From Candidatus Gottesmanbacteria bacterium GW2011_GWA2_43_14 (GTDB lineage Bacteria > Patescibacteriota > Microgenomatia > 2-02-FULL-39-11), in NCBI GenBank assembly GCA_000999095.1, contig LCFP01000012.1:4140-68139 (forward strand): 64,000 nt of DNA, in the 5' to 3' direction. Below the pieces are notes generated by a model. It searched no databases. It saw nothing but the letters and a program-made list of their open reading frames with translations, and was not told the DNA's origin. Below are positions 1,550 to 56,580 of this stretch, in pieces; the stretch's first letter is position 1; each line of letters starts with the position of its first letter. Made by a program: the position numbers and the translations under genes.

Positions 1550-2338
1550 CTATTGGCAGTCGGAGTCGCAGGCGAAACCATCCCCGTCGCCGTCCCTTCC
1601 GGTACAGCCGCAATTAACCAGCTGGAATTGGGCTTCGGCGCAGGAGGTCATTTTGGCACACGATTTGCTGCAGTCGCAGATATATAAGGAAGCATCTCCG
1701 CCTGGTTCTGAAGTAGTCACGGGAGTCGGTTGAATTTCGCAGGCCGATCCCCATAATCCTTTCTGTTCTTCACGGGCGAGGCGCTGGGCTTCCATAAATC
1801 TTTCCTGGTATTTCACATCAGGCTGGTAAGTGTACGAATAGGCATAGCCTTCGCGGATGAGGATTTCATTTACCAGTTCTTCTCCGAGCCAAATGTATCT
1901 AAGGAGCCTGCCGTATCTGTCTTTTTCGGAAATATCCTTTTCCAACCTCACCAGTTTTCCTTCAACCAATTCTGTGTTTTTATCAGAAGCTTCTTTGGCG
2001 AAGCATTGGAGTGCTTTGGCCGGATGGACTGATTCCGGAGTATCGATGCCGATATACCTGACCGTTTCTCCGGTTTCTATTTTCACCGTGTCGCCGTCAA
2101 CGACGTTTACTACTCTGACTAAATCAGCATCATCAACGGTTGTCGTGGAAGGTTCCGGAGTCAGCATTTCGGCCGGACTGCCAGAAGGAGCGGGCGGATC
2201 GATTTTCTCGGGAGTGGGGGAAACTGAAGGGGAAGGGGTGAGGGACGGGGAGGATGAGGCGACTTCCGGGCCGGATTTGGCGGTTATTAAATTTGCCAGG
2301 ATGAAGAAAATCAGGAGTATGCCGAGTATTATTTTCAC
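1550..2338 (-). CDS. Secreted thermonuclease (Staphylococcal nuclease (SNase) family) with a C-terminal Excalibur Ca-binding domain
   Basis: Signal/TM N-terminus and a Pro/Ser/Thr linker. SNase motifs are present: VVDGDTVKI, RYIGIDTPE, DRYGRLLRYIW, VNEILIREGYA, GLWG. The C-terminus is Cys-rich with DGDGDGFACDSDC, an Excalibur-like signature. Confidence 0.8.
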   Translation of the reverse strand: MKIILGILLIFFILANLITAKSGPEVASSSPSLTPSPSVSPTPEKIDPPAPSGSPAEMLTPEPSTTTVDDADLVRVVNVVDGDTVKIETGETVRYIGIDTPESVHPAKALQCFAKEASDKNTELVEGKLVRLEKDISEKDRYGRLLRYIWLGEELVNEILIREGYAYSYTYQPDVKYQERFMEAQRLAREEQKGLWGSACEIQPTPVTTSEPGGDASLYICDCSKSCAKMTSCAEAQFQLVNCGCTGRDGDGDGFACDSDCQ

Positions 2339-11650: not shown

Positions 11651-12325
11651 ATGTTTCCCATCCGCGACCATAATCCGTCGAAGAGTTTTCCCGTCATCAC
11701 GGTGTTAATCATTTTGATCACCTCTTACGTTTTTTTCCTGCAGTTAACAGCTTTCGACCCTGAGGCTTTCATCATGAATTACGCCCTGGTGCCTGCATTG
11801 GTCGATTTCGGCAATCCTGCAACCTGGTGGCCTTTTATCTGGTCGATGTTCATGCATGGCGGGTGGCTGCACATCATTTCCAACTTGTGGTTTCTCTGGA
11901 TATTCGGAGACAATGTCGAGGCATTTCTGGGACATATAGGATTTTTGCTTTTTTATCTGTTAACCGGAATTGCCGCCAGCCTGGTGCAATTTTTTTTCAT
12001 GAGCGGATCGGAGATTCCGACTCTGGGAGCCTCCGGGGCAATCGCCGGAGTCTTGGGAGCTTACCTGGTTTTGTACCCCAGACACAAAATCGATACGTTG
12101 GTAATATCTTTCGGCGGATTCCTGCAAAAACTACAGATACCGGCTTCATTCATGCTCGGATACTGGTTTATCATCCAGCTGTTTTCGGGTGTCGGCAGTT
12201 TGGGAGCGGCCGGTCAGGGCGGCGTCGCCTGGTGGGCCCATATCGGCGGCTTTGCTTCAGGCTATCTTTTCACCCAGGCAGTCAAAGGCAACAACCGGAC
12301 TGAAACAGAACCGGATGCAGGGTAA
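11651..12325 (+). CDS. Rhomboid family intramembrane serine protease
   Basis: HGGWLHIISNLWFLWIFG, GASGAIAG (GxSG) and AHIGGFASG (His). About six TM helices. Confidence 0.8.
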   Translation: MFPIRDHNPSKSFPVITVLIILITSYVFFLQLTAFDPEAFIMNYALVPALVDFGNPATWWPFIWSMFMHGGWLHIISNLWFLWIFGDNVEAFLGHIGFLLFYLLTGIAASLVQFFFMSGSEIPTLGASGAIAGVLGAYLVLYPRHKIDTLVISFGGFLQKLQIPASFMLGYWFIIQLFSGVGSLGAAGQGGVAWWAHIGGFASGYLFTQAVKGNNRTETEPDAG

Positions 12326-12381
12326 TTTTCTGTTTTGTTTTGATAAATTAGCCTTTTTTGCTATAATGAGAAACTCTTAAG

Positions 12382-12786
12382 ATGAAAAGGATGTTTTTAT
12401 CATTAGTACTGTTTTTTGTCCTGTTACTTCCGGCAGGTGTAAACGCCCAAGAGACACCATCGTCAACACCCGAACCAACGGTGACGGCAACGCCAACCGG
12501 CAGCAGTGCGACAGCTACAAATTCACCTTCCGAACCGACGGCAACATCCAGGCCTCAGGCAACCGTCACCAGAACTCCGGTAAGAAGCACAGCCACGCCT
12601 TTGCCTCCGACCGTCACACCGACCATTACTTTGTCACCCACGCCCAGCCAGACACCGACTCCGACTCCGGCACCTTCTTTTTTGGCCAGGAGCGGGGGAG
12701 GAGCGGGTTTTATTTTGATTCTGGCAGGTTTAGCTCTTCTGGGCGGTTCCGTCTACTACCTGCGTAAACAAAAGCGCTCAGTTTAG
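12382..12786 (+). CDS. Secreted Thr/Pro-rich protein with a GlyGly-CTERM-like tail (GGG, then a TM helix, then basic residues)
   Basis: Signal peptide, a TP-rich linker, and the C-terminus ...ARSGGGAGFILILAGLALLGGSVYYLRKQKRSV. Immediately downstream of the rhomboid gene. Confidence 0.5.
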   Translation: MKRMFLSLVLFFVLLLPAGVNAQETPSSTPEPTVTATPTGSSATATNSPSEPTATSRPQATVTRTPVRSTATPLPPTVTPTITLSPTPSQTPTPTPAPSFLARSGGGAGFILILAGLALLGGSVYYLRKQKRSV

Positions 12787-12927: not shown

Positions 12928-12957
12928 AGAAACCCCCGAATACTCGGGGGTTTTTTA
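12928..12957. terminator. Bidirectional intrinsic terminator
   Basis: An A-run, then the CCCCCG-aatact-CGGGGG hairpin, then a T-run. It lies between convergent genes (12382..12786 + and rnj -). Confidence 0.6.
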
Positions 12958-31842: not shown

Positions 31843-33842
31843 ATGGCACAAAATGTAACCGTCACCAAAAACAGGAACGTACCTTTGGCCAGGTTGAGGA
31901 ATATCGGCATTATTGCCCATATTGATGCCGGTAAAACCACGACCACCGAAAGGATACTTTATTATACCGGTAAATCCTACAAGATCGGTGACATTGATGA
32001 GGGTACAACCCAGATGGACTGGATGCCTCAGGAGAAAGAAAGAGGCATAACTATCACCGTTTGGATGCGGAAGAAGGCGTCCAGTCCCAATCAGAGACTG
32101 TCTGGCATCAGGCGGATAAATACAAAGTTCCCCGGATATGTTTTATTAACAAGATGGATAAACTGGGTGCTGACTTTCTGAGAACTGTGCAAATGATTAA
32201 AGACCGCCTGGGAGCCAATCCGGCCATCATGAATTTACCGATAGGCAAAGAACATGAATACATAGGCGTTGTCGATCTTTTAACCAGAAAAAGCATGATT
32301 TGGGGAACCGATGTGCTCGGAGCGAAATATGATCTGTCAGACGAGATTCCGGCCGGTATGAAAGATGAAGTGGAAAAATACCGCCACAAACTGATCGAAC
32401 AGATTTGTGAGCAGGATGATGCCCTTTTGGAAAAATACCTGGGCGGAAATGAACCGTCTCTGGAAGAATTAAAGAAAGTATTGAGGAAGACTACCATCGC
32501 CTATAAACTGGTGCCGATTTATGCCGGTTCATCATTAAGAAATAAGGGAGTTCAGCCTCTTTTGGATGCTATTGTCGATTACCTCCCGTCGCCTTTGGAA
32601 GTATCAGGCATCAAAGGCATTAATCCCAAGACAAACCAGGAGGAATTGAGAAAAACTGATTCTAACGAGCCGTTTTCGGCTCTGGCCTTCAAAATCCAAT
32701 TGGATCCGCATGTAGGTAAATTGACTTACATCCGGATTTATTCAGGTAAATTGACCTCCGGTTCATATGCCTGGAATGCCTCTAAAGACAAGCAGGAAAG
32801 GGTCGGCCGCCTGCTTTTAATGCATGCCAATAACCGTGAAGAAATACAGGAAGCTTATGCCGGAGAGATAGTAGCGGTTGTGGGTTTGAAGGAAACGGGT
32901 ACAGGTGATACTTTAAGCCAACAGACAAGGCCAATTATTTTGGAGAAGATTACTTTTCCGGATCCTGTTATTTCTCTGGCCATTGAACCGAAAACCAAGG
33001 CTGACCAGGAAAAAATGGGACAAGCCCTGCAAAGACTTGCCGAAGAAGACCCGACTTTTATAGTTAAATCAAATTTGGAAACAGGACAAACTATCATCTG
33101 GGGCATGGGTGAACTTCATCTGGAAGTTCTGGTCGACAGAATGAAAAGGGAATTCAAAGTCGATGCTAATGTCGGAGCGCCACAGGTTGCTTATAAAGAA
33201 ACGATCAAAGGTAAAGCCGAAGGGGAGGGAAAATATATACGTCAGACAGGTGGCCGGGGACAATACGGTCATTGTTTCCTTAGAGTTGAACCAAAAGCCA
33301 GAGGTGAAGGTTACGAATTTGTTGACGCCATCAAAGGCGCGGCAATACCCAATGAATTTATTCCTTCAGTGCAAAAAGGAGTCAAAGAAGCATTGGATAA
33401 GGGCATTCTAGCCGGATACCCGGTAGTTGATATGAAAGTCACCCTTTATGACGGCACATACCATGATGTGGATTCATCAGATATCGCCTTTAAAATTGCC
33501 GGCAGTATAGCTTTGCAGAGTGCAGCCAAACAGGCCGGTTTAATCCTTCTGGAACCGATCATGAAGGTCGAAGTGACGACTCCTGATGAATTTATGGGTA
33601 CGGTCATCGGAGATATATCGAGTAAAAGAGCTCAAATCCTGGGAACGGAAAAACGCGGTACTGTTTCCATTATTATCGCATTGGTACCTTTAGCGGAACT
33701 TTCAGGATATGCGACAACCTTAAGGTCTGTTTCCCAAGGCCGGGCAACTTACTATATGGAGCCTTCACATTACGAGGAAGTTCCTAAAAACATTACTGAA
33801 AAAATCGTTTCCTCAGTTTCCCATCCGTCTACCCGGGGTTAA
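31843..33842 (+). CDS. fusA: Elongation factor G with an apparent internal deletion and frameshift at about 32052-32066. The G3/DTPGH segment is missing.
   Basis: ORF 31843..32181 encodes the G1/G2 region up to ERGITIT. ORF 32061..33842 resumes at (V)[26 protein letters not shown] in another frame. About 35-40 codons are absent between them. Confidence 0.85.
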
Positions 33843-33854
33843 ACTTCCGTCTTC

Positions 33855-34772
33855 TTACTTCTGAAGTTCTTTTTTCCTGAAGAAAAAGCGCAGGATCAAG
33901 ATCGCGGGGATGATGATGACTGAGTAGACAAAAGCCCAGATAGCCAGAGTGCCTACTTTTCTCAGGTTGGCAATTAATGATCTGACCGCTGTTTTAAAGA
34001 TGACGTCCGGCCTCCAGGTTTCAGAGGGTGCGTATGGCAATGAGAATTCATCGGTTGATAAATTTATGGTGATTCGGGCAAGTTGGGCGTTTTTCTCAAG
34101 GTAATTTTGCCGACCCTTGTAGGAATCGATCTGGTTTTCCAAATTAATCAGTTCCTGCTGAACCCTGAGGATATCGGAGATTTCCACAGCAGATTCAAAA
34201 ATAGCCTCGAATTTAGCTTTAGTACGGTTTAATGTAACCAGTTTGGCGTCAATATCCTCATATTCATCGGTGACGTCATTGCCGTATAAATTTTCCCAGA
34301 CAACTTTAACCGCCAGACCCCTTAAAGAATTTAAGGTTGCATCCAATTGGGAAGCCGGTACTCTGACTGTCAGGGAAGCATAAGGTGCATCTTCAGGAGA
34401 TGAAAGGCTGCTGTTGACCATATAGCCGCCGGCCGCCTTGACCTGGCTTAAAATATCATCCAGGGCTGTCCGCACGTTTTTTACCTGCAGGGAAATATCG
34501 GAATTCTGGATGACAAGTCTGTCTTGTGCGTTATTAGTCGGAGCATAATCCGCTGAAGAAGGAATTATGCTTTTGCCTAAGCCCCGGGAACCAAGTCCCA
34601 TCTCCGGTGCGGCCATATCGAAGCTTTCGGTCATACCCAAATTCGGTTGATAGCTTTTTCTGAGGTTAACTGAAAAGAGACCGGAATTATTTTTCAGAAG
34701 GAAATATAAAACGGCTACAGCCAAAAGTGCCGTCAGTCTGTTGTTTTTTATCCAGGAAAAAACAGCCTTCAT
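33855..34772 (-). CDS. DUF4349-like membrane protein (N- and C-terminal TM helices, coiled-coil core)
   Basis: 305 aa on the opposite strand, inserted between fusA and tuf. Confidence 0.4.
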   Translation of the reverse strand: MKAVFSWIKNNRLTALLAVAVLYFLLKNNSGLFSVNLRKSYQPNLGMTESFDMAAPEMGLGSRGLGKSIIPSSADYAPTNNAQDRLVIQNSDISLQVKNVRTALDDILSQVKAAGGYMVNSSLSSPEDAPYASLTVRVPASQLDATLNSLRGLAVKVVWENLYGNDVTDEYEDIDAKLVTLNRTKAKFEAIFESAVEISDILRVQQELINLENQIDSYKGRQNYLEKNAQLARITINLSTDEFSLPYAPSETWRPDVIFKTAVRSLIANLRKVGTLAIWAFVYSVIIIPAILILRFFFRKKELQK

Positions 34773-55081: not shown

Positions 55082-55961
55082 AAACAGCCAGGTGGCCTGA
55101 GATTCTTTCCTCTTTATTGCTGCTTCTCCAGGGAGTTTCGACAGTAATGACAGGTATCTTTATTGAAGACAGATATGCTCCCATAGTCTGGGCTTTTATA
55201 AATTTTTTCCACAACCGGTTCAGTATTGCAAAGCCGAATCCCAAAGGGGAATATCCCGCAATTTTTAATTTTCTGCCGTAATAATCCGTTTCTGTTAAAG
55301 AAAATTTATTCTCTTTAAGAAATTTTATTATCCTCACAGCAGTCTCCTGCGGAACAAATTTATTGGCATAAAAAAACATGCCTTGTTTTTGGGGGCTTTC
55401 ATGAAGAGAGAGGACAAAGTCCGGCCGGAATTTTTCAACCTCCTTTTTTATAAGGGCTGCTTCCCGGCTTCGGAAAATAACAAAATCGCGGTTGATGTCC
55501 AGGCCTTCGGCATTATATCTTGATTTGCATGTTGCCCCGACTGGATTTGCCGGGGTTATGATTCTGATTTCCATTTCCCTGTAGCGGCTGAAACGGCTGC
55601 GCAGTTCTTTAAGTATCTCCGGTATGGCCATCATGGCCGCCTGTTCATTGCCGTGGATGCCGGCGATAACCAGTAATTTTTTATTTGTTTTTATGCCTTT
55701 AAAATTTATTTTGAGGATGGGATATTTTTTATCCCGGTAGGTTATCTCAGCTATTTTTGAGATTGCATATAATTTTTTGAAACTTAAAATCTTCCTGTAA
55801 TATTCATCCAAATTGAAATCCAGATAATAGATGCCCAATTCCGTTTCTTCTTCAGGACCCTTTCCGGGATATCCGGTTAAATGGTATTTCCAAAAAAGCC
55901 TGAGGTTTTTATAAACGGCTCTCAACATTTCGAAATAATAATTACAGCTGTCAGTAAACAA
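54984..55961 (-). CDS. M14-family zinc deacylase/peptidase (succinylglutamate desuccinylase / aspartoacylase / MpaA-like)
   Basis: LLVIAGIHGNEQAAM (HxxE zinc site) and later His/Glu residues. Its 3' end overlaps the ATP-grasp 3' end by 98 nt on the opposite strand. Confidence 0.7.
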   Translation of the reverse strand: MFTDSCNYYFEMLRAVYKNLRLFWKYHLTGYPGKGPEEETELGIYYLDFNLDEYYRKILSFKKLYAISKIAEITYRDKKYPILKINFKGIKTNKKLLVIAGIHGNEQAAMMAIPEILKELRSRFSRYREMEIRIITPANPVGATCKSRYNAEGLDINRDFVIFRSREAALIKKEVEKFRPDFVLSLHESPQKQGMFFYANKFVPQETAVRIIKFLKENKFSLTETDYYGRKLKIAGYSPLGFGFAILNRLWKKFIKAQTMGAYLSSIKIPVITVETPWRSSNKEERISGHLAVFKQLTDSMLRQSGRRKVDEIPRIGKAQSTQAP

Positions 55962-56580
55962 TTACCGGAGTACCGACGGGGGCCCAGGCAAAGAGCTGTT
56001 CGGCTTCGGGAGTTTTCATATTGATGCAGCCGTGGGACATCGGTTGTCCGAAGTTGTTATGCCAGTAGGTGCCATGGAAGGAAAAACCGCGGTACCAGGG
56101 AATCTGGCTATTGCCGTAAAACATGACCCAGGGAACGTTGGGCAGGTAGTAATAAGTATTATTGGCCTTGTTGCCTCCGGACATCTTTTGCGCCCGGACT
56201 TTGCGTTCAATAGTGAAAGTACCTCTCGGAGTCGGATACCATTTACCGGTCGAGACGATAAAATCAAAGAGTAAAGAATTTCCCTCAAAAGCATAAACAT
56301 GCTGGTTGGCCAGGTTGACTTCTATCCTTTTGGCTCCTACCTGTTCTCCTAAAACAAAAGCAAAGGAATCGTTGATCGGAGGGACAGTTACATTTGTGCC
56401 GAAATATTCACCGGAAGTTGCCGCTGGATCAAACTGGTCGGAGATTTGGTTTTCATTTTCATGTGGCAGGCAGCCGATGGCAGCTGCAGGCTGGATTGGT
56501 TCAAGCGGTTTAATGATAAACCATAAAGCGGCCAGTTCGGCAAAGGTCAAAAATATCAGTAAATAAGAAATTTTCTTCAC
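55951..56580 (-). CDS. L,D-transpeptidase (YkuD domain)
   Basis: N-terminal TM helix. Catalytic motif SHGCINM. Confidence 0.8.
   Translation of the reverse strand: MKKISYLLIFLTFAELAALWFIIKPLEPIQPAAAIGCLPHENENQISDQFDPAATSGEYFGTNVTVPPINDSFAFVLGEQVGAKRIEVNLANQHVYAFEGNSLLFDFIVSTGKWYPTPRGTFTIERKVRAQKMSGGNKANNTYYYLPNVPWVMFYGNSQIPWYRGFSFHGTYWHNNFGQPMSHGCINMKTPEAEQLFAWAPVGTPVIVY

What the first reader, a model, noticed from the sequence alone, without database searches (positions are those of the whole stretch)
11651..12786. Rhomboid protease followed by a small secreted protein with a GlyGly-CTERM-like sorting tail
The 134-aa protein has a signal peptide, a Thr/Pro-rich spacer, and the C-terminus SGGGAG-FILILAGLALLGGSVYYL-RKQKRSV. 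A Gly-Gly motif, then a TM helix, then a basic cluster is the GlyGly-CTERM signature that rhombosortases (a rhomboid subfamily) cleave in Proteobacteria. Here the gene sits 57 nt downstream of a rhomboid gene, which makes them a candidate protease and cognate-substrate pair. Such a pairing has not, to my knowledge, been described for CPR bacteria. The T/P-rich region would be a surface-exposed stalk.
Basis: partly seen in the sequence, partly recalled or inferred. Interest (0 to 1): 0.6.

Follow-up and report, generated by a model that had tools for sequence, protein, structure and literature searches.

The report
Ordinary rhomboid beside small anchored protein
A general-purpose rhomboid membrane protease in a groundwater CPR bacterium lies next to a small, lineage-specific, threonine/proline-rich surface protein. 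The small protein's membrane tail looks like a rhombosortase sorting signal but fails every formal test for one, so it is only an untested candidate substrate.

Summary
Both genes are real and at the stated coordinates. The 224-aa protein is a canonical rhomboid: Pfam 110.8 bits, Ser128/His197, and an AF2 model that matches GlpG. It is not a rhombosortase (TIGR03902 19 bits against a cutoff of 84).

The 134-aa protein has a Sec signal peptide, a T/P/S-rich spacer, a Gly-Gly motif, a TM helix and a basic tail. Its tail and four orthologous tails give no TIGR03501 hit, while a synthetic control tail scores 26.5 bits. They match only the TM-plus-basic part of generic anchor models.

The gene pair recurs in six Gottesmanbacteria lineages, inside a larger conserved block. 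Eight other close rhomboid orthologues lack the small gene. The small gene carries its own conserved TGnTATAAT promoter element (6 of 6 loci) and its own terminator. In 1.84 billion representative proteins, the motif F[ILV]xx[AST]GGx[LA]G occurs only in small orthologues, so it is not a modular sorting tag.

The juxtamembrane motif does fit the general rhomboid rule (bulky P4, small P1, helix-breaking GGP). Cleavage by the neighbouring rhomboid is therefore plausible (about 0.3) but unproven. Verdict: partly supported, modest interest.

The parts
11651..12325 (+). Rhomboid-family intramembrane serine protease, 224 aa, six-TM core, general type (neither rhombosortase nor GlpG equivalog)
   Evidence: PF01694 scores 110.8 bits. 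TIGR03902 scores 19.1 of the 84 needed and TIGR04239 scores 22 of the 250 needed. The AF2 model has pLDDT 89.9. Its top 30 Foldseek PDB hits are all GlpG, probability 1.0, TM about 0.75. A source names it 'rhomboid family protein, Candidatus Gottesmanbacteria GW2011_GWA2_43_14'.
12032..12034 (+). Codon of the catalytic Ser128 (GASG motif)
   Evidence: Aligns with Ser116 of H. influenzae GlpG. Invariant in 31 of 31 homologues.
12239..12241 (+). Codon of the catalytic His197 (AHIGG motif)
   Evidence: Invariant in 31 of 31 homologues. The position corresponds to the TM6 His of rhomboids (established knowledge of GlpG).
12340..12367 (+). Promoter-like site TTGATA-16-TATAAT with a TG extension, ending 14 nt before the small gene's ATG
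   Evidence: Matches 11 of 12 consensus positions. TGnTATAAT lies 10-20 nt upstream of the start in 6 of 6 orthologous loci.
12382..12786 (+). Small lineage-specific secreted, C-terminally anchored T/P-rich protein (134 aa, no Pfam family)
12382..12447 (+). Sec signal peptide (residues 1-22, predicted cleavage VNA|Q)
   Evidence: Read directly from the sequence. The A/G|Q junction is conserved in six orthologues.
12448..12678 (+). Thr/Pro/Ser-rich spacer, predicted to be extended
   Evidence: Composition is 66% T+P+S.
12679..12708 (+). Conserved juxtamembrane motif F-[ILV]-x-x-[AS]-G-G-x-[LA]-G (FLARSGGGAG here). This is the candidate protease recognition site, with L101 as P4 and S104 as P1.
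   Evidence: It is the most conserved block of the protein. It fits the P4-bulky, P1-small rule described in PMC11389362.
12709..12762 (+). Transmembrane helix F110-L127 with conserved Gly116 and Gly121
   Evidence: Hydropathy score 2.24. Invariant columns listed.
12763..12783 (+). Basic cytoplasmic tail RKQKRSV
   Evidence: Read directly from the sequence.
12928..12955 (+). Intrinsic terminator (12-bp stem, then a T-run) that closes the small gene's transcription unit

Best explanation
The locus holds two separate things.

(1) A general-purpose six-TM rhomboid protease. It belongs to a broadly conserved orthologous group with an invariant N-terminal MFPIRDHNP. Members share 53-79% identity across Microgenomates/CPR and about 48% identity with Rhodobacterales.

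(2) A small protein specific to a Gottesmanbacteria sub-clade. It is transcribed from its own strong promoter and ended by its own terminator. It is exported by Sec, loses its signal peptide, and sits in the cytoplasmic membrane as a type-I (N-out, C-in) protein with an extended T/P-rich stalk. This resembles the wall-spanning linker of Gram-positive surface proteins, but without a head domain.

The tail is this family's own membrane anchor, not a GlyGly-CTERM sorting domain, and the protease is not a rhombosortase. The adjacency comes from a larger conserved block (ABC-ABC-thyA-folA-rhomboid-small gene) shared by close relatives.

Shown: gene reality, protease family and fold, the HMM failures, the extent of synteny, the conserved promoter element, and restriction of the motif to this family.

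Inferred: topology, surface exposure, and whether the protein is cleaved. I estimate about 0.3 that the neighbouring rhomboid cleaves it after [AS]104 and sheds the stalk.
For: - Rhomboid identity: PF01694 110.8 bits, GlpG fold, catalytic Ser/His invariant.
- Not a rhombosortase: 19.1 bits against a cutoff of 84.
- Tail is not GlyGly-CTERM: no hit for five tails, positive control 26.5 bits. The tails hit only profile positions 8/12-33 of LPXTG_anchor, plus Loki-/Heimdall-CTERM below cutoff, which is the generic TM-plus-basic part.
- The rhomboid group is widespread and unlinked elsewhere: 581 relatives in GTDB, with Rhodobacterales at about 48% identity and no such neighbour.
- The pair occurs in six lineages: window, L011, L012, L013, L091, and L099 with one gene in between. 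It is absent after eight other close orthologues.
- Linked and unlinked rhomboids differ at only one core residue (Q159), plus one column in the variable C-terminal tail.
- TGnTATAAT is conserved in 6 of 6 loci, and a terminator follows the gene.
- The motif is found only in 132-203 aa orthologues among 1.84 billion representatives.
- PT-linker-plus-anchor tails with a G-rich pre-TM stretch are common in unrelated proteins.
Against: - The juxtamembrane block P[SN]F[ILV]xx[AS]GGx[LA]G is the most conserved part of the protein. That is more than a passive anchor needs, and it suggests recognition by some partner.
- It satisfies the P4-hydrophobic, P1-small rhomboid rule in all orthologues and is followed by helix-breaking GG(P).
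- Haft and Varghese found that single-target rhombosortase systems are typically adjacent to their target, in 16 of 21 genomes. Adjacency of a lone target is therefore a known signature.
- A whole-genome census of the source genome could not be run.
Confidence: 0.6

Rival explanations
1. Dedicated protease-substrate pair that works like a one-target rhombosortase system, or like GlpG/AarA with a cognate substrate. The rhomboid cleaves the neighbour-encoded type-I protein at [ILV]-x-x-[AS]|G-G, at the outer edge of the membrane. This releases an ~80-residue T/P-rich peptide from the monoderm cell, or exposes a new C-terminus for re-attachment.
For: - Same strand, 56-nt gap. Adjacency is kept in five lineages and one-gene proximity in a sixth.
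- Type-I topology, and a conserved juxtamembrane motif with bulky P4 and small P1. This resembles the GlpG site in VesB (F375 as P4, S378 as P1, in the loop just before the GlyGly motif; PMC11389362).
- Helix-destabilising GGP and Gly116/Gly121.
- Lone targets are usually encoded next to their rhombosortase (PMC3237569).
- The protease has an intact catalytic dyad.
Against: - The protease fails the rhombosortase HMM and the tail fails TIGR03501.
- The rhomboid orthologous group is retained without the small gene in eight close CPR relatives and in Alphaproteobacteria.
- There is no protease specialisation beyond one column.
- The adjacency sits in a block of functionally unrelated genes.
- The small gene has its own conserved promoter.
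- A more distant relative of the small protein (P0133) is not next to a rhomboid.
- The P4/P1 rule is loose and is easily met by chance.
Confidence: 0.28
2. The tail is a sortase-type cell-wall sorting signal with a degenerate pentapeptide ([ILV]-x-[KR]-[AS]-G; LARSG here, compare class-E LAxTG). A Microgenomates sortase, not the rhomboid, processes it and links the T/P stalk to peptidoglycan.
For: - The isolated tails score 19.3 and 16.9 bits on TIGR01167 LPXTG_anchor (cutoff 15.9), with two more at 14.0 and 15.4.
- A T/P-rich wall-spanning segment before the anchor is typical of sortase substrates.
- True LPXTG proteins (VPKTGD, LPETGD) were recovered by the same profile.
- A sortase family is reported as near ubiquitous in Microgenomates (PMC6744442).
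Against: - The HMM alignments cover only profile positions 8/12-33 and exclude the LPXTG part.
- The full-length protein scores below cutoff (14.9 bits).
- No Pro at position 2 in any orthologue, and Thr at position 4 only in P0125 (IFQKTGG).
- No ORF with a sortase TLxTC signature in the window, and none of ten Pfam-scanned ORFs is a sortase.
Confidence: 0.1
3. The small ORF is a non-functional low-complexity ORF, or a degenerating remnant of a larger surface protein (linker plus anchor only), and the pairing has no meaning.
For: - The protein has no globular domain and no Pfam hit.
- Gene callers skipped it in two assemblies.
- The closest rhomboid relative has an IS transposase at this position.
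Against: - The frame, signal peptide junction, tail motif, promoter and terminator are all conserved across six or more lineages that share only 37-50% protein identity.
- Three further orthologous clusters turn up in the full HMMER scan.
Confidence: 0.02

Closest known systems
Rhombosortase / GlyGly-CTERM system (TIGR03902 / TIGR03501; Haft & Varghese 2011; V. cholerae RssP-VesB)
   Same: - A rhomboid-fold Ser/His protease next to a single protein whose C-terminus is a Gly-rich motif, a TM helix and a basic cluster.
- Lone targets of rhombosortase are typically encoded adjacent to it.
   Different: - The protease scores 19 bits against an 84-bit cutoff, and the tail has no TIGR03501 match although a control tail is detected.
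- The host is a CPR bacterium, reported to lack a Gram-negative envelope (PMC6744442). [quoted passage not shown]
- The tail is confined to one small protein family and is not shared by non-homologous proteins.
General bacterial rhomboids with natural type-I substrates (E. coli/V. cholerae GlpG, P. stuartii AarA-TatA)
   Same: - Six-TM core, GxSG Ser and TM6 His, and the GlpG fold.
- The candidate site has a bulky hydrophobic P4 and a small P1 next to a helix-breaking Gly/Pro, as for AarA/GlpG substrates.
   Different: - It scores only 22 bits on the GlpG equivalog (cutoff 250), and is ~50 residues shorter than that 271-position model.
- It has a family-specific N-terminal strand and a TM4-TM5 beta-hairpin in the AF2 model.
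- No substrate has been shown experimentally.
LPXTG-type sortase substrates of Gram-positive bacteria (TIGR01167)
   Same: Signal peptide, a Pro/Thr-rich wall-spanning segment, a hydrophobic stretch and a basic tail. The tail alone reaches the model's cutoff.
   Different: There is no LPXTG-like pentapeptide. The match is confined to the hydrophobic and basic part.

Membership tests
Rhomboid family (PF01694) | Pfam score above the gathering threshold | tested here: met
   110.8 bits against a threshold of 22.6.
Rhomboid family (PF01694) | Catalytic Ser in GxSG (TM4) and His in TM6, plus the H..H...N of TM2 | tested here: met
   S128 aligns with HiGlpG S116. H69, H74, N78, S128 and H197 are invariant in 31 sequences.
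Rhomboid family (PF01694) | GlpG-like six-helix fold | tested here: met
   AF2 pLDDT 89.9. Foldseek hits to GlpG have probability 1.0 and TMt 0.66-0.77.
Rhombosortase (TIGR03902) | Score at or above the equivalog cutoff | tested here: not met
   19.1 bits against a cutoff of 84. The GlpG model scores slightly higher at 22 bits.
Rhombosortase (TIGR03902) | Co-distribution with GlyGly-CTERM proteins across genomes | tested here: not met
   Eight close orthologues and the alphaproteobacterial homologues lack any such neighbour. A genome-wide profile was not possible.
GlyGly-CTERM (TIGR03501) | Tripartite C-terminal architecture: Gly-rich motif, TM helix, basic cluster | tested here: met
   SGGGAG / FILILAGLALLGGSVYYL / RKQKRSV. 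GG is invariant in the orthologues.
GlyGly-CTERM (TIGR03501) | Match to the HMM (cutoff 15.5 bits) | tested here: not met
   No hit at E<=10 for the full protein or for five isolated tails. A synthetic consensus tail scores 26.5 bits.
GlyGly-CTERM (TIGR03501) | Tail homology shared by otherwise unrelated proteins (many-to-one), or a lone target adjacent to the sorting enzyme | tested here: inconclusive
   The motif occurs only in small orthologues among 1.84 billion representatives, and only once in the window. Adjacency to a non-rhombosortase rhomboid is present in five to six lineages.
GlpG equivalog (TIGR04239) | Score at or above 250 bits | tested here: not met
   22 bits.
LPXTG sortase signal (TIGR01167) | HMM score at or above 15.9 bits | tested here: inconclusive
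   The full protein scores 14.9 bits. Isolated tails score 19.3, 16.9, 14.0 and 15.4 bits.
LPXTG sortase signal (TIGR01167) | LPXTG-like pentapeptide before the hydrophobic segment | tested here: not met
   The alignments start at profile position 8-12. The conserved sequence is F[ILV]xx[AS]GG, with no Pro or Thr.
LPXTG sortase signal (TIGR01167) | Sortase encoded in the same genome | not testable with these tools
   None seen in the 64-kb window. The literature reports sortase as near ubiquitous in Microgenomates.
Canonical rhomboid substrate (functional class) | Type-I single-pass topology, P4 bulky / P1 small motif, helix-destabilising TMD residues | tested here: met
   Signal peptide plus a positive-inside tail. 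[ILVF] at P4 and [AS] at P1 (T in one case) in all orthologues, with GG(P), G116 and G121. The rule is taken from PMC11389362.
Canonical rhomboid substrate (functional class) | Demonstrated cleavage by the protease | not testable with these tools
   Needs a biochemical or co-expression assay.

The most novel reading that the evidence does not exclude
A general (non-rhombosortase) rhomboid in a monoderm CPR bacterium has a neighbour-encoded, dedicated substrate. It cleaves the conserved [ILV]xx[AS]|GG site and sheds, or re-anchors, a mucin-like T/P-rich stalk peptide. This would be the first predicted natural rhomboid substrate in the CPR. It would also be an independent, convergent counterpart of the one-target rhombosortase/GlyGly-CTERM arrangement.
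Probability: 0.25. Interest if true: 0.55.

Novelty: new member of a known kind. Interest (0 to 1): 0.3.

Why it matters
Natural substrates of bacterial rhomboids are known for only a handful of species, and none for CPR bacteria. A neighbour-encoded candidate with a conserved site that fits the rule gives a cheap, directly testable pair.

As it stands, the locus is an ordinary rhomboid beside a clade-specific anchored surface protein. The resemblance to GlyGly-CTERM comes from the generic 'G-rich, TM, basic' architecture shared by many unrelated tails. For later scans, this means that architecture alone should not be read as a rhombosortase signal.

Tried and rejected
- Tail-only alignment against the 5.8-billion protein database. 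The first two attempts failed on parameter limits. The third found 192 word-sharing candidates, none at E<=10. A 46-residue TM-rich profile cannot reach significance at that database size, so this is uninformative rather than negative.
- Metagenome scan with the small-protein alignment. Paralogues sharing only the tail could have been missed.
- Rhomboid NJ tree, to ask whether linked rhomboids form a clade. It was unresolved, with monophyly in 7 of 50 bootstraps; an earlier smaller tree had suggested a clade. No conclusion drawn.
- Search for residues that separate linked from unlinked rhomboids. Only Q159 in the core and one column in the variable C-terminal tail. No evidence of specialisation.
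- Context of a distant small-protein relative (P0133). The contig is only 1 kb and has no flanking rhomboid. Weak evidence.
- Sortase signature and LPXTG regexes on window ORFs found nothing relevant.
- Literature searches for rhomboids in CPR/Patescibacteria returned no relevant paper.
- AF2 docking of the tail into the protease was considered, but the tool folds single chains of window sequences only.

Full report
**Observation.** The window carries ORF 11651..12325 (+, 224 aa) and ORF 12382..12786 (+, 134 aa), separated by 56 nt. The 134-aa product reads MKRMFLSLVLFFVLLLPAGVNA|QETP..., followed by a spacer that is 29% Thr, 23% Pro and 14% Ser. Identical genes occur on Rifle groundwater contigs. 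One source names the rhomboid as coming from Candidatus Gottesmanbacteria GW2011_GWA2_43_14.

**The protease.**
- It matches Pfam Rhomboid at 110.8 bits.
- Ser128 in GASG aligns with the catalytic Ser116 of H. influenzae GlpG.
- H69, H74, N78, S128 and H197 are invariant in 31 homologues.
- An AlphaFold2 model (pLDDT 89.9) finds only GlpG structures as its top 30 PDB matches (probability 1.0).
- It scores 19.1 bits on the rhombosortase equivalog TIGR03902 (cutoff 84) and 22 bits on the GlpG equivalog (cutoff 250). It is a generic short rhomboid.
- The family is widespread. A GTDB scan confirmed 581 relatives. Beyond five CPR genomes, the best hits were Rhodobacterales proteins at about 48% identity that share the invariant N-terminus MFPIRDHNP.

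**The tail.** The full protein gives no TIGR03501 (GlyGly-CTERM) hit at E<=10. It gives only sub-threshold hits to Heimdall-CTERM (15.9 of 24 bits) and LPXTG_anchor (14.9 of 15.9 bits).

I ran a sensitivity control. A synthetic consensus-style GlyGly tail scored 26.5 bits on TIGR03501 (cutoff 15.5) and also picked up rhombosortase-dependent families. The isolated tails of the window protein and four orthologues again gave no TIGR03501 hit. Those tails scored 14-19 bits on LPXTG_anchor, but only over profile positions 8/12-33. That is the hydrophobic and basic part, not the LPXTG part. The resemblance to GlyGly-CTERM is therefore architectural, not homologous.

**Relatives and linkage.** A database search with the small protein found one homologue (38% identity) with the same neighbourhood. 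Scans of GTDB genomes and metagenomes, plus contig look-ups, gave six species-level lineages in which the small gene follows the rhomboid:
- the window
- L011, L012 and L013
- L091
- L099, with one Zincin_1 gene in between and the small ORF missed by the gene caller

In all of them the pair lies in a larger conserved block: ABC ATPase, ABC permease, thyA, folA, rhomboid, small gene.

Eight other close CPR orthologues of the rhomboid (53-70% identity) lack the small gene: L014, L015, L096, L097, L098, L100, L101 and L102. Their downstream genes are murI-like, an antitoxin/PIN pair, msrB, thyA, rarA and others. The closest relative, L095 (77-79% identity), has an IS transposase there and the contig then ends. 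No such neighbour was detected in the alphaproteobacterial loci; the rhomboid ORF itself was located in only about 30 of them.

The rhomboid tree does not resolve whether the linked proteases form a clade (7 of 50 bootstraps). Only one core column (Q159) and one in the variable C-terminal tail separate linked from unlinked proteases.

**Transcription.** A near-consensus promoter, TTGATA-16-TATAAT with a TG extension, ends 14 nt before the small gene's ATG. A strong intrinsic terminator follows at 12928-12955. The extended -10 element TGnTATAAT lies 10-20 nt upstream of the start codon in all six orthologous loci. In two of them it overlaps the rhomboid stop codon. The small gene is thus very probably its own transcription unit, although read-through from the rhomboid is not excluded.

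**Is the tail a modular sorting tag?** I ran a full HMMER scan of 1.84 billion representative proteins with the alignment of the window protein and P0001. It gave 81 hits at E<=0.001. The motif [FIV][FILV]xx[AST]GGx[LA]G occurs in only five clusters, all 132-203 aa and plainly orthologous small proteins.

The remaining hits are unrelated proteins with a P/T linker and a TM-plus-basic anchor. They include genuine LPXTG proteins (VPKTGD, LPETGD) and several with G-rich pre-TM stretches. More distant small relatives (P0128, P0131, P0134) keep the architecture but lose the GG. One of the more distant relatives, P0133 (which keeps a GG, SSVGGKPL), is not flanked by a rhomboid on its short contig. 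Within the window, no other protein has this tail. The tail is therefore specific to this family.

**What still favours a protease-substrate link.** The juxtamembrane block P[SN]F[ILV]xx[AS]GGx[LA]G[FY] is the best-conserved part of the protein.

Work on V. cholerae VesB shows that the general rhomboid GlpG cuts in the loop just before the GlyGly motif, with F375 as P4 and S378 as P1. The preferences are a bulky P4 and a small P1, as for AarA/TatA (PMC11389362). Here [ILV]101 (F in one orthologue) would be P4 and [AS]104 (T in one) would be P1. Helix-breaking GG(P) follows, and the TM has conserved glycines.

Haft and Varghese also found that lone GlyGly-CTERM targets are usually encoded next to their rhombosortase, in 16 of 21 genomes (PMC3237569). 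These points make cleavage plausible. However, the P4/P1 rule is permissive and nothing here tests cleavage.

**Sortase rival.** A sortase family is reported as near ubiquitous in Microgenomates (PMC6744442), and the tail alone reaches the LPXTG_anchor cutoff. Against this, no LPXTG-like pentapeptide is conserved, and no sortase lies among the window ORFs examined.

**Verdict.** The locus is an ordinary general rhomboid next to a clade-specific, independently transcribed, Sec-exported, type-I anchored T/P-rich stalk protein. Membership in the rhombosortase/GlyGly-CTERM system is rejected on tested defining features.

| Reading | Estimated probability |
|---|---|
| Anchored surface protein, no demonstrated coupling to the rhomboid | about 0.6 |
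| The small protein is a natural substrate of the neighbouring rhomboid | about 0.25-0.3 |
| Sortase substrate | about 0.1 |

No paper on rhomboids in CPR bacteria turned up in the searched library. The candidate pair would be new if confirmed, but at present the interest is modest.

Noticed in passing
window 31843-33842 (+): fusA (EF-G) is split between two frames. The G-domain N-terminus (AHIDAGKTT) is in ORF 31843..32181 and the rest runs from about 32061..33842. This implies a frameshift near 32050-32065, either an assembly error or real.
   Followed up: partly
window 33855-34772 (-): A DUF4349 membrane protein (132.7 bits) is encoded antisense between fusA and tuf. It carries the only other TM-plus-basic C-terminal tail in the window.
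   Followed up: partly
window 11651-12325 (residues 2-6 and 146-164 of the rhomboid): The AF2 model places the invariant N-terminal MFPIRD as a beta-strand and residues 146-152/158-164 (between TM4 and TM5) as a beta-hairpin. Neither element was seen in the sequence alignment to H. influenzae GlpG; the comparison with GlpG structures rests on recalled knowledge. The N-terminal motif is conserved from CPR to Rhodobacterales.
   Followed up: partly
window 12359-12367, and the equivalent sites in L011, L012, L013, L091 and L099: An extended -10 element TGnTATAAT is conserved 10-20 nt upstream of the small gene's ATG in 6 of 6 lineages. In L013 and L091 it overlaps the rhomboid stop codon. The leader would be very short.
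   Followed up: yes
L004 432-1103: One assembly of the same strain has a rhomboid whose C-terminus is replaced by out-of-frame sequence after ...IIQLFSG. It loses the catalytic His and ends 1 nt before the small gene. This is probably a deletion or an assembly artefact.
   Followed up: no
L095 1622-2512: In the closest relative of the rhomboid (77-79% identity), an rve_3 integrase/transposase sits directly downstream, where the small gene would be. The contig ends just after it.
   Followed up: partly
L001 7726-8130; L099 2313-2744: Automatic gene callers missed the small T/P-rich ORF in two assemblies. In L099 an antisense 167-aa ORF was called instead. Counts of this family in protein databases are therefore underestimates.
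   Followed up: yes
L011 5363-5890, L012 5147-5677, L013 1486-2016, L091 4436-4828: In the sister lineages, the small gene is followed (convergently) by a secreted SLT-domain lytic transglycosylase (the L091 copy carries its own T/P-rich linker), and in L011-L013 then by a 287-297 aa gene (CAP domain on the identical L008 copy). In the window, RNase J follows directly.
   Followed up: no
window 1550-2338 (-) and 55951-56580 (-): A secreted staphylococcal-nuclease homologue with an Excalibur Ca-binding domain, and a YkuD L,D-transpeptidase. These are ordinary envelope functions, consistent with the Gram-positive-like envelope reported for CPR bacteria.
   Followed up: no
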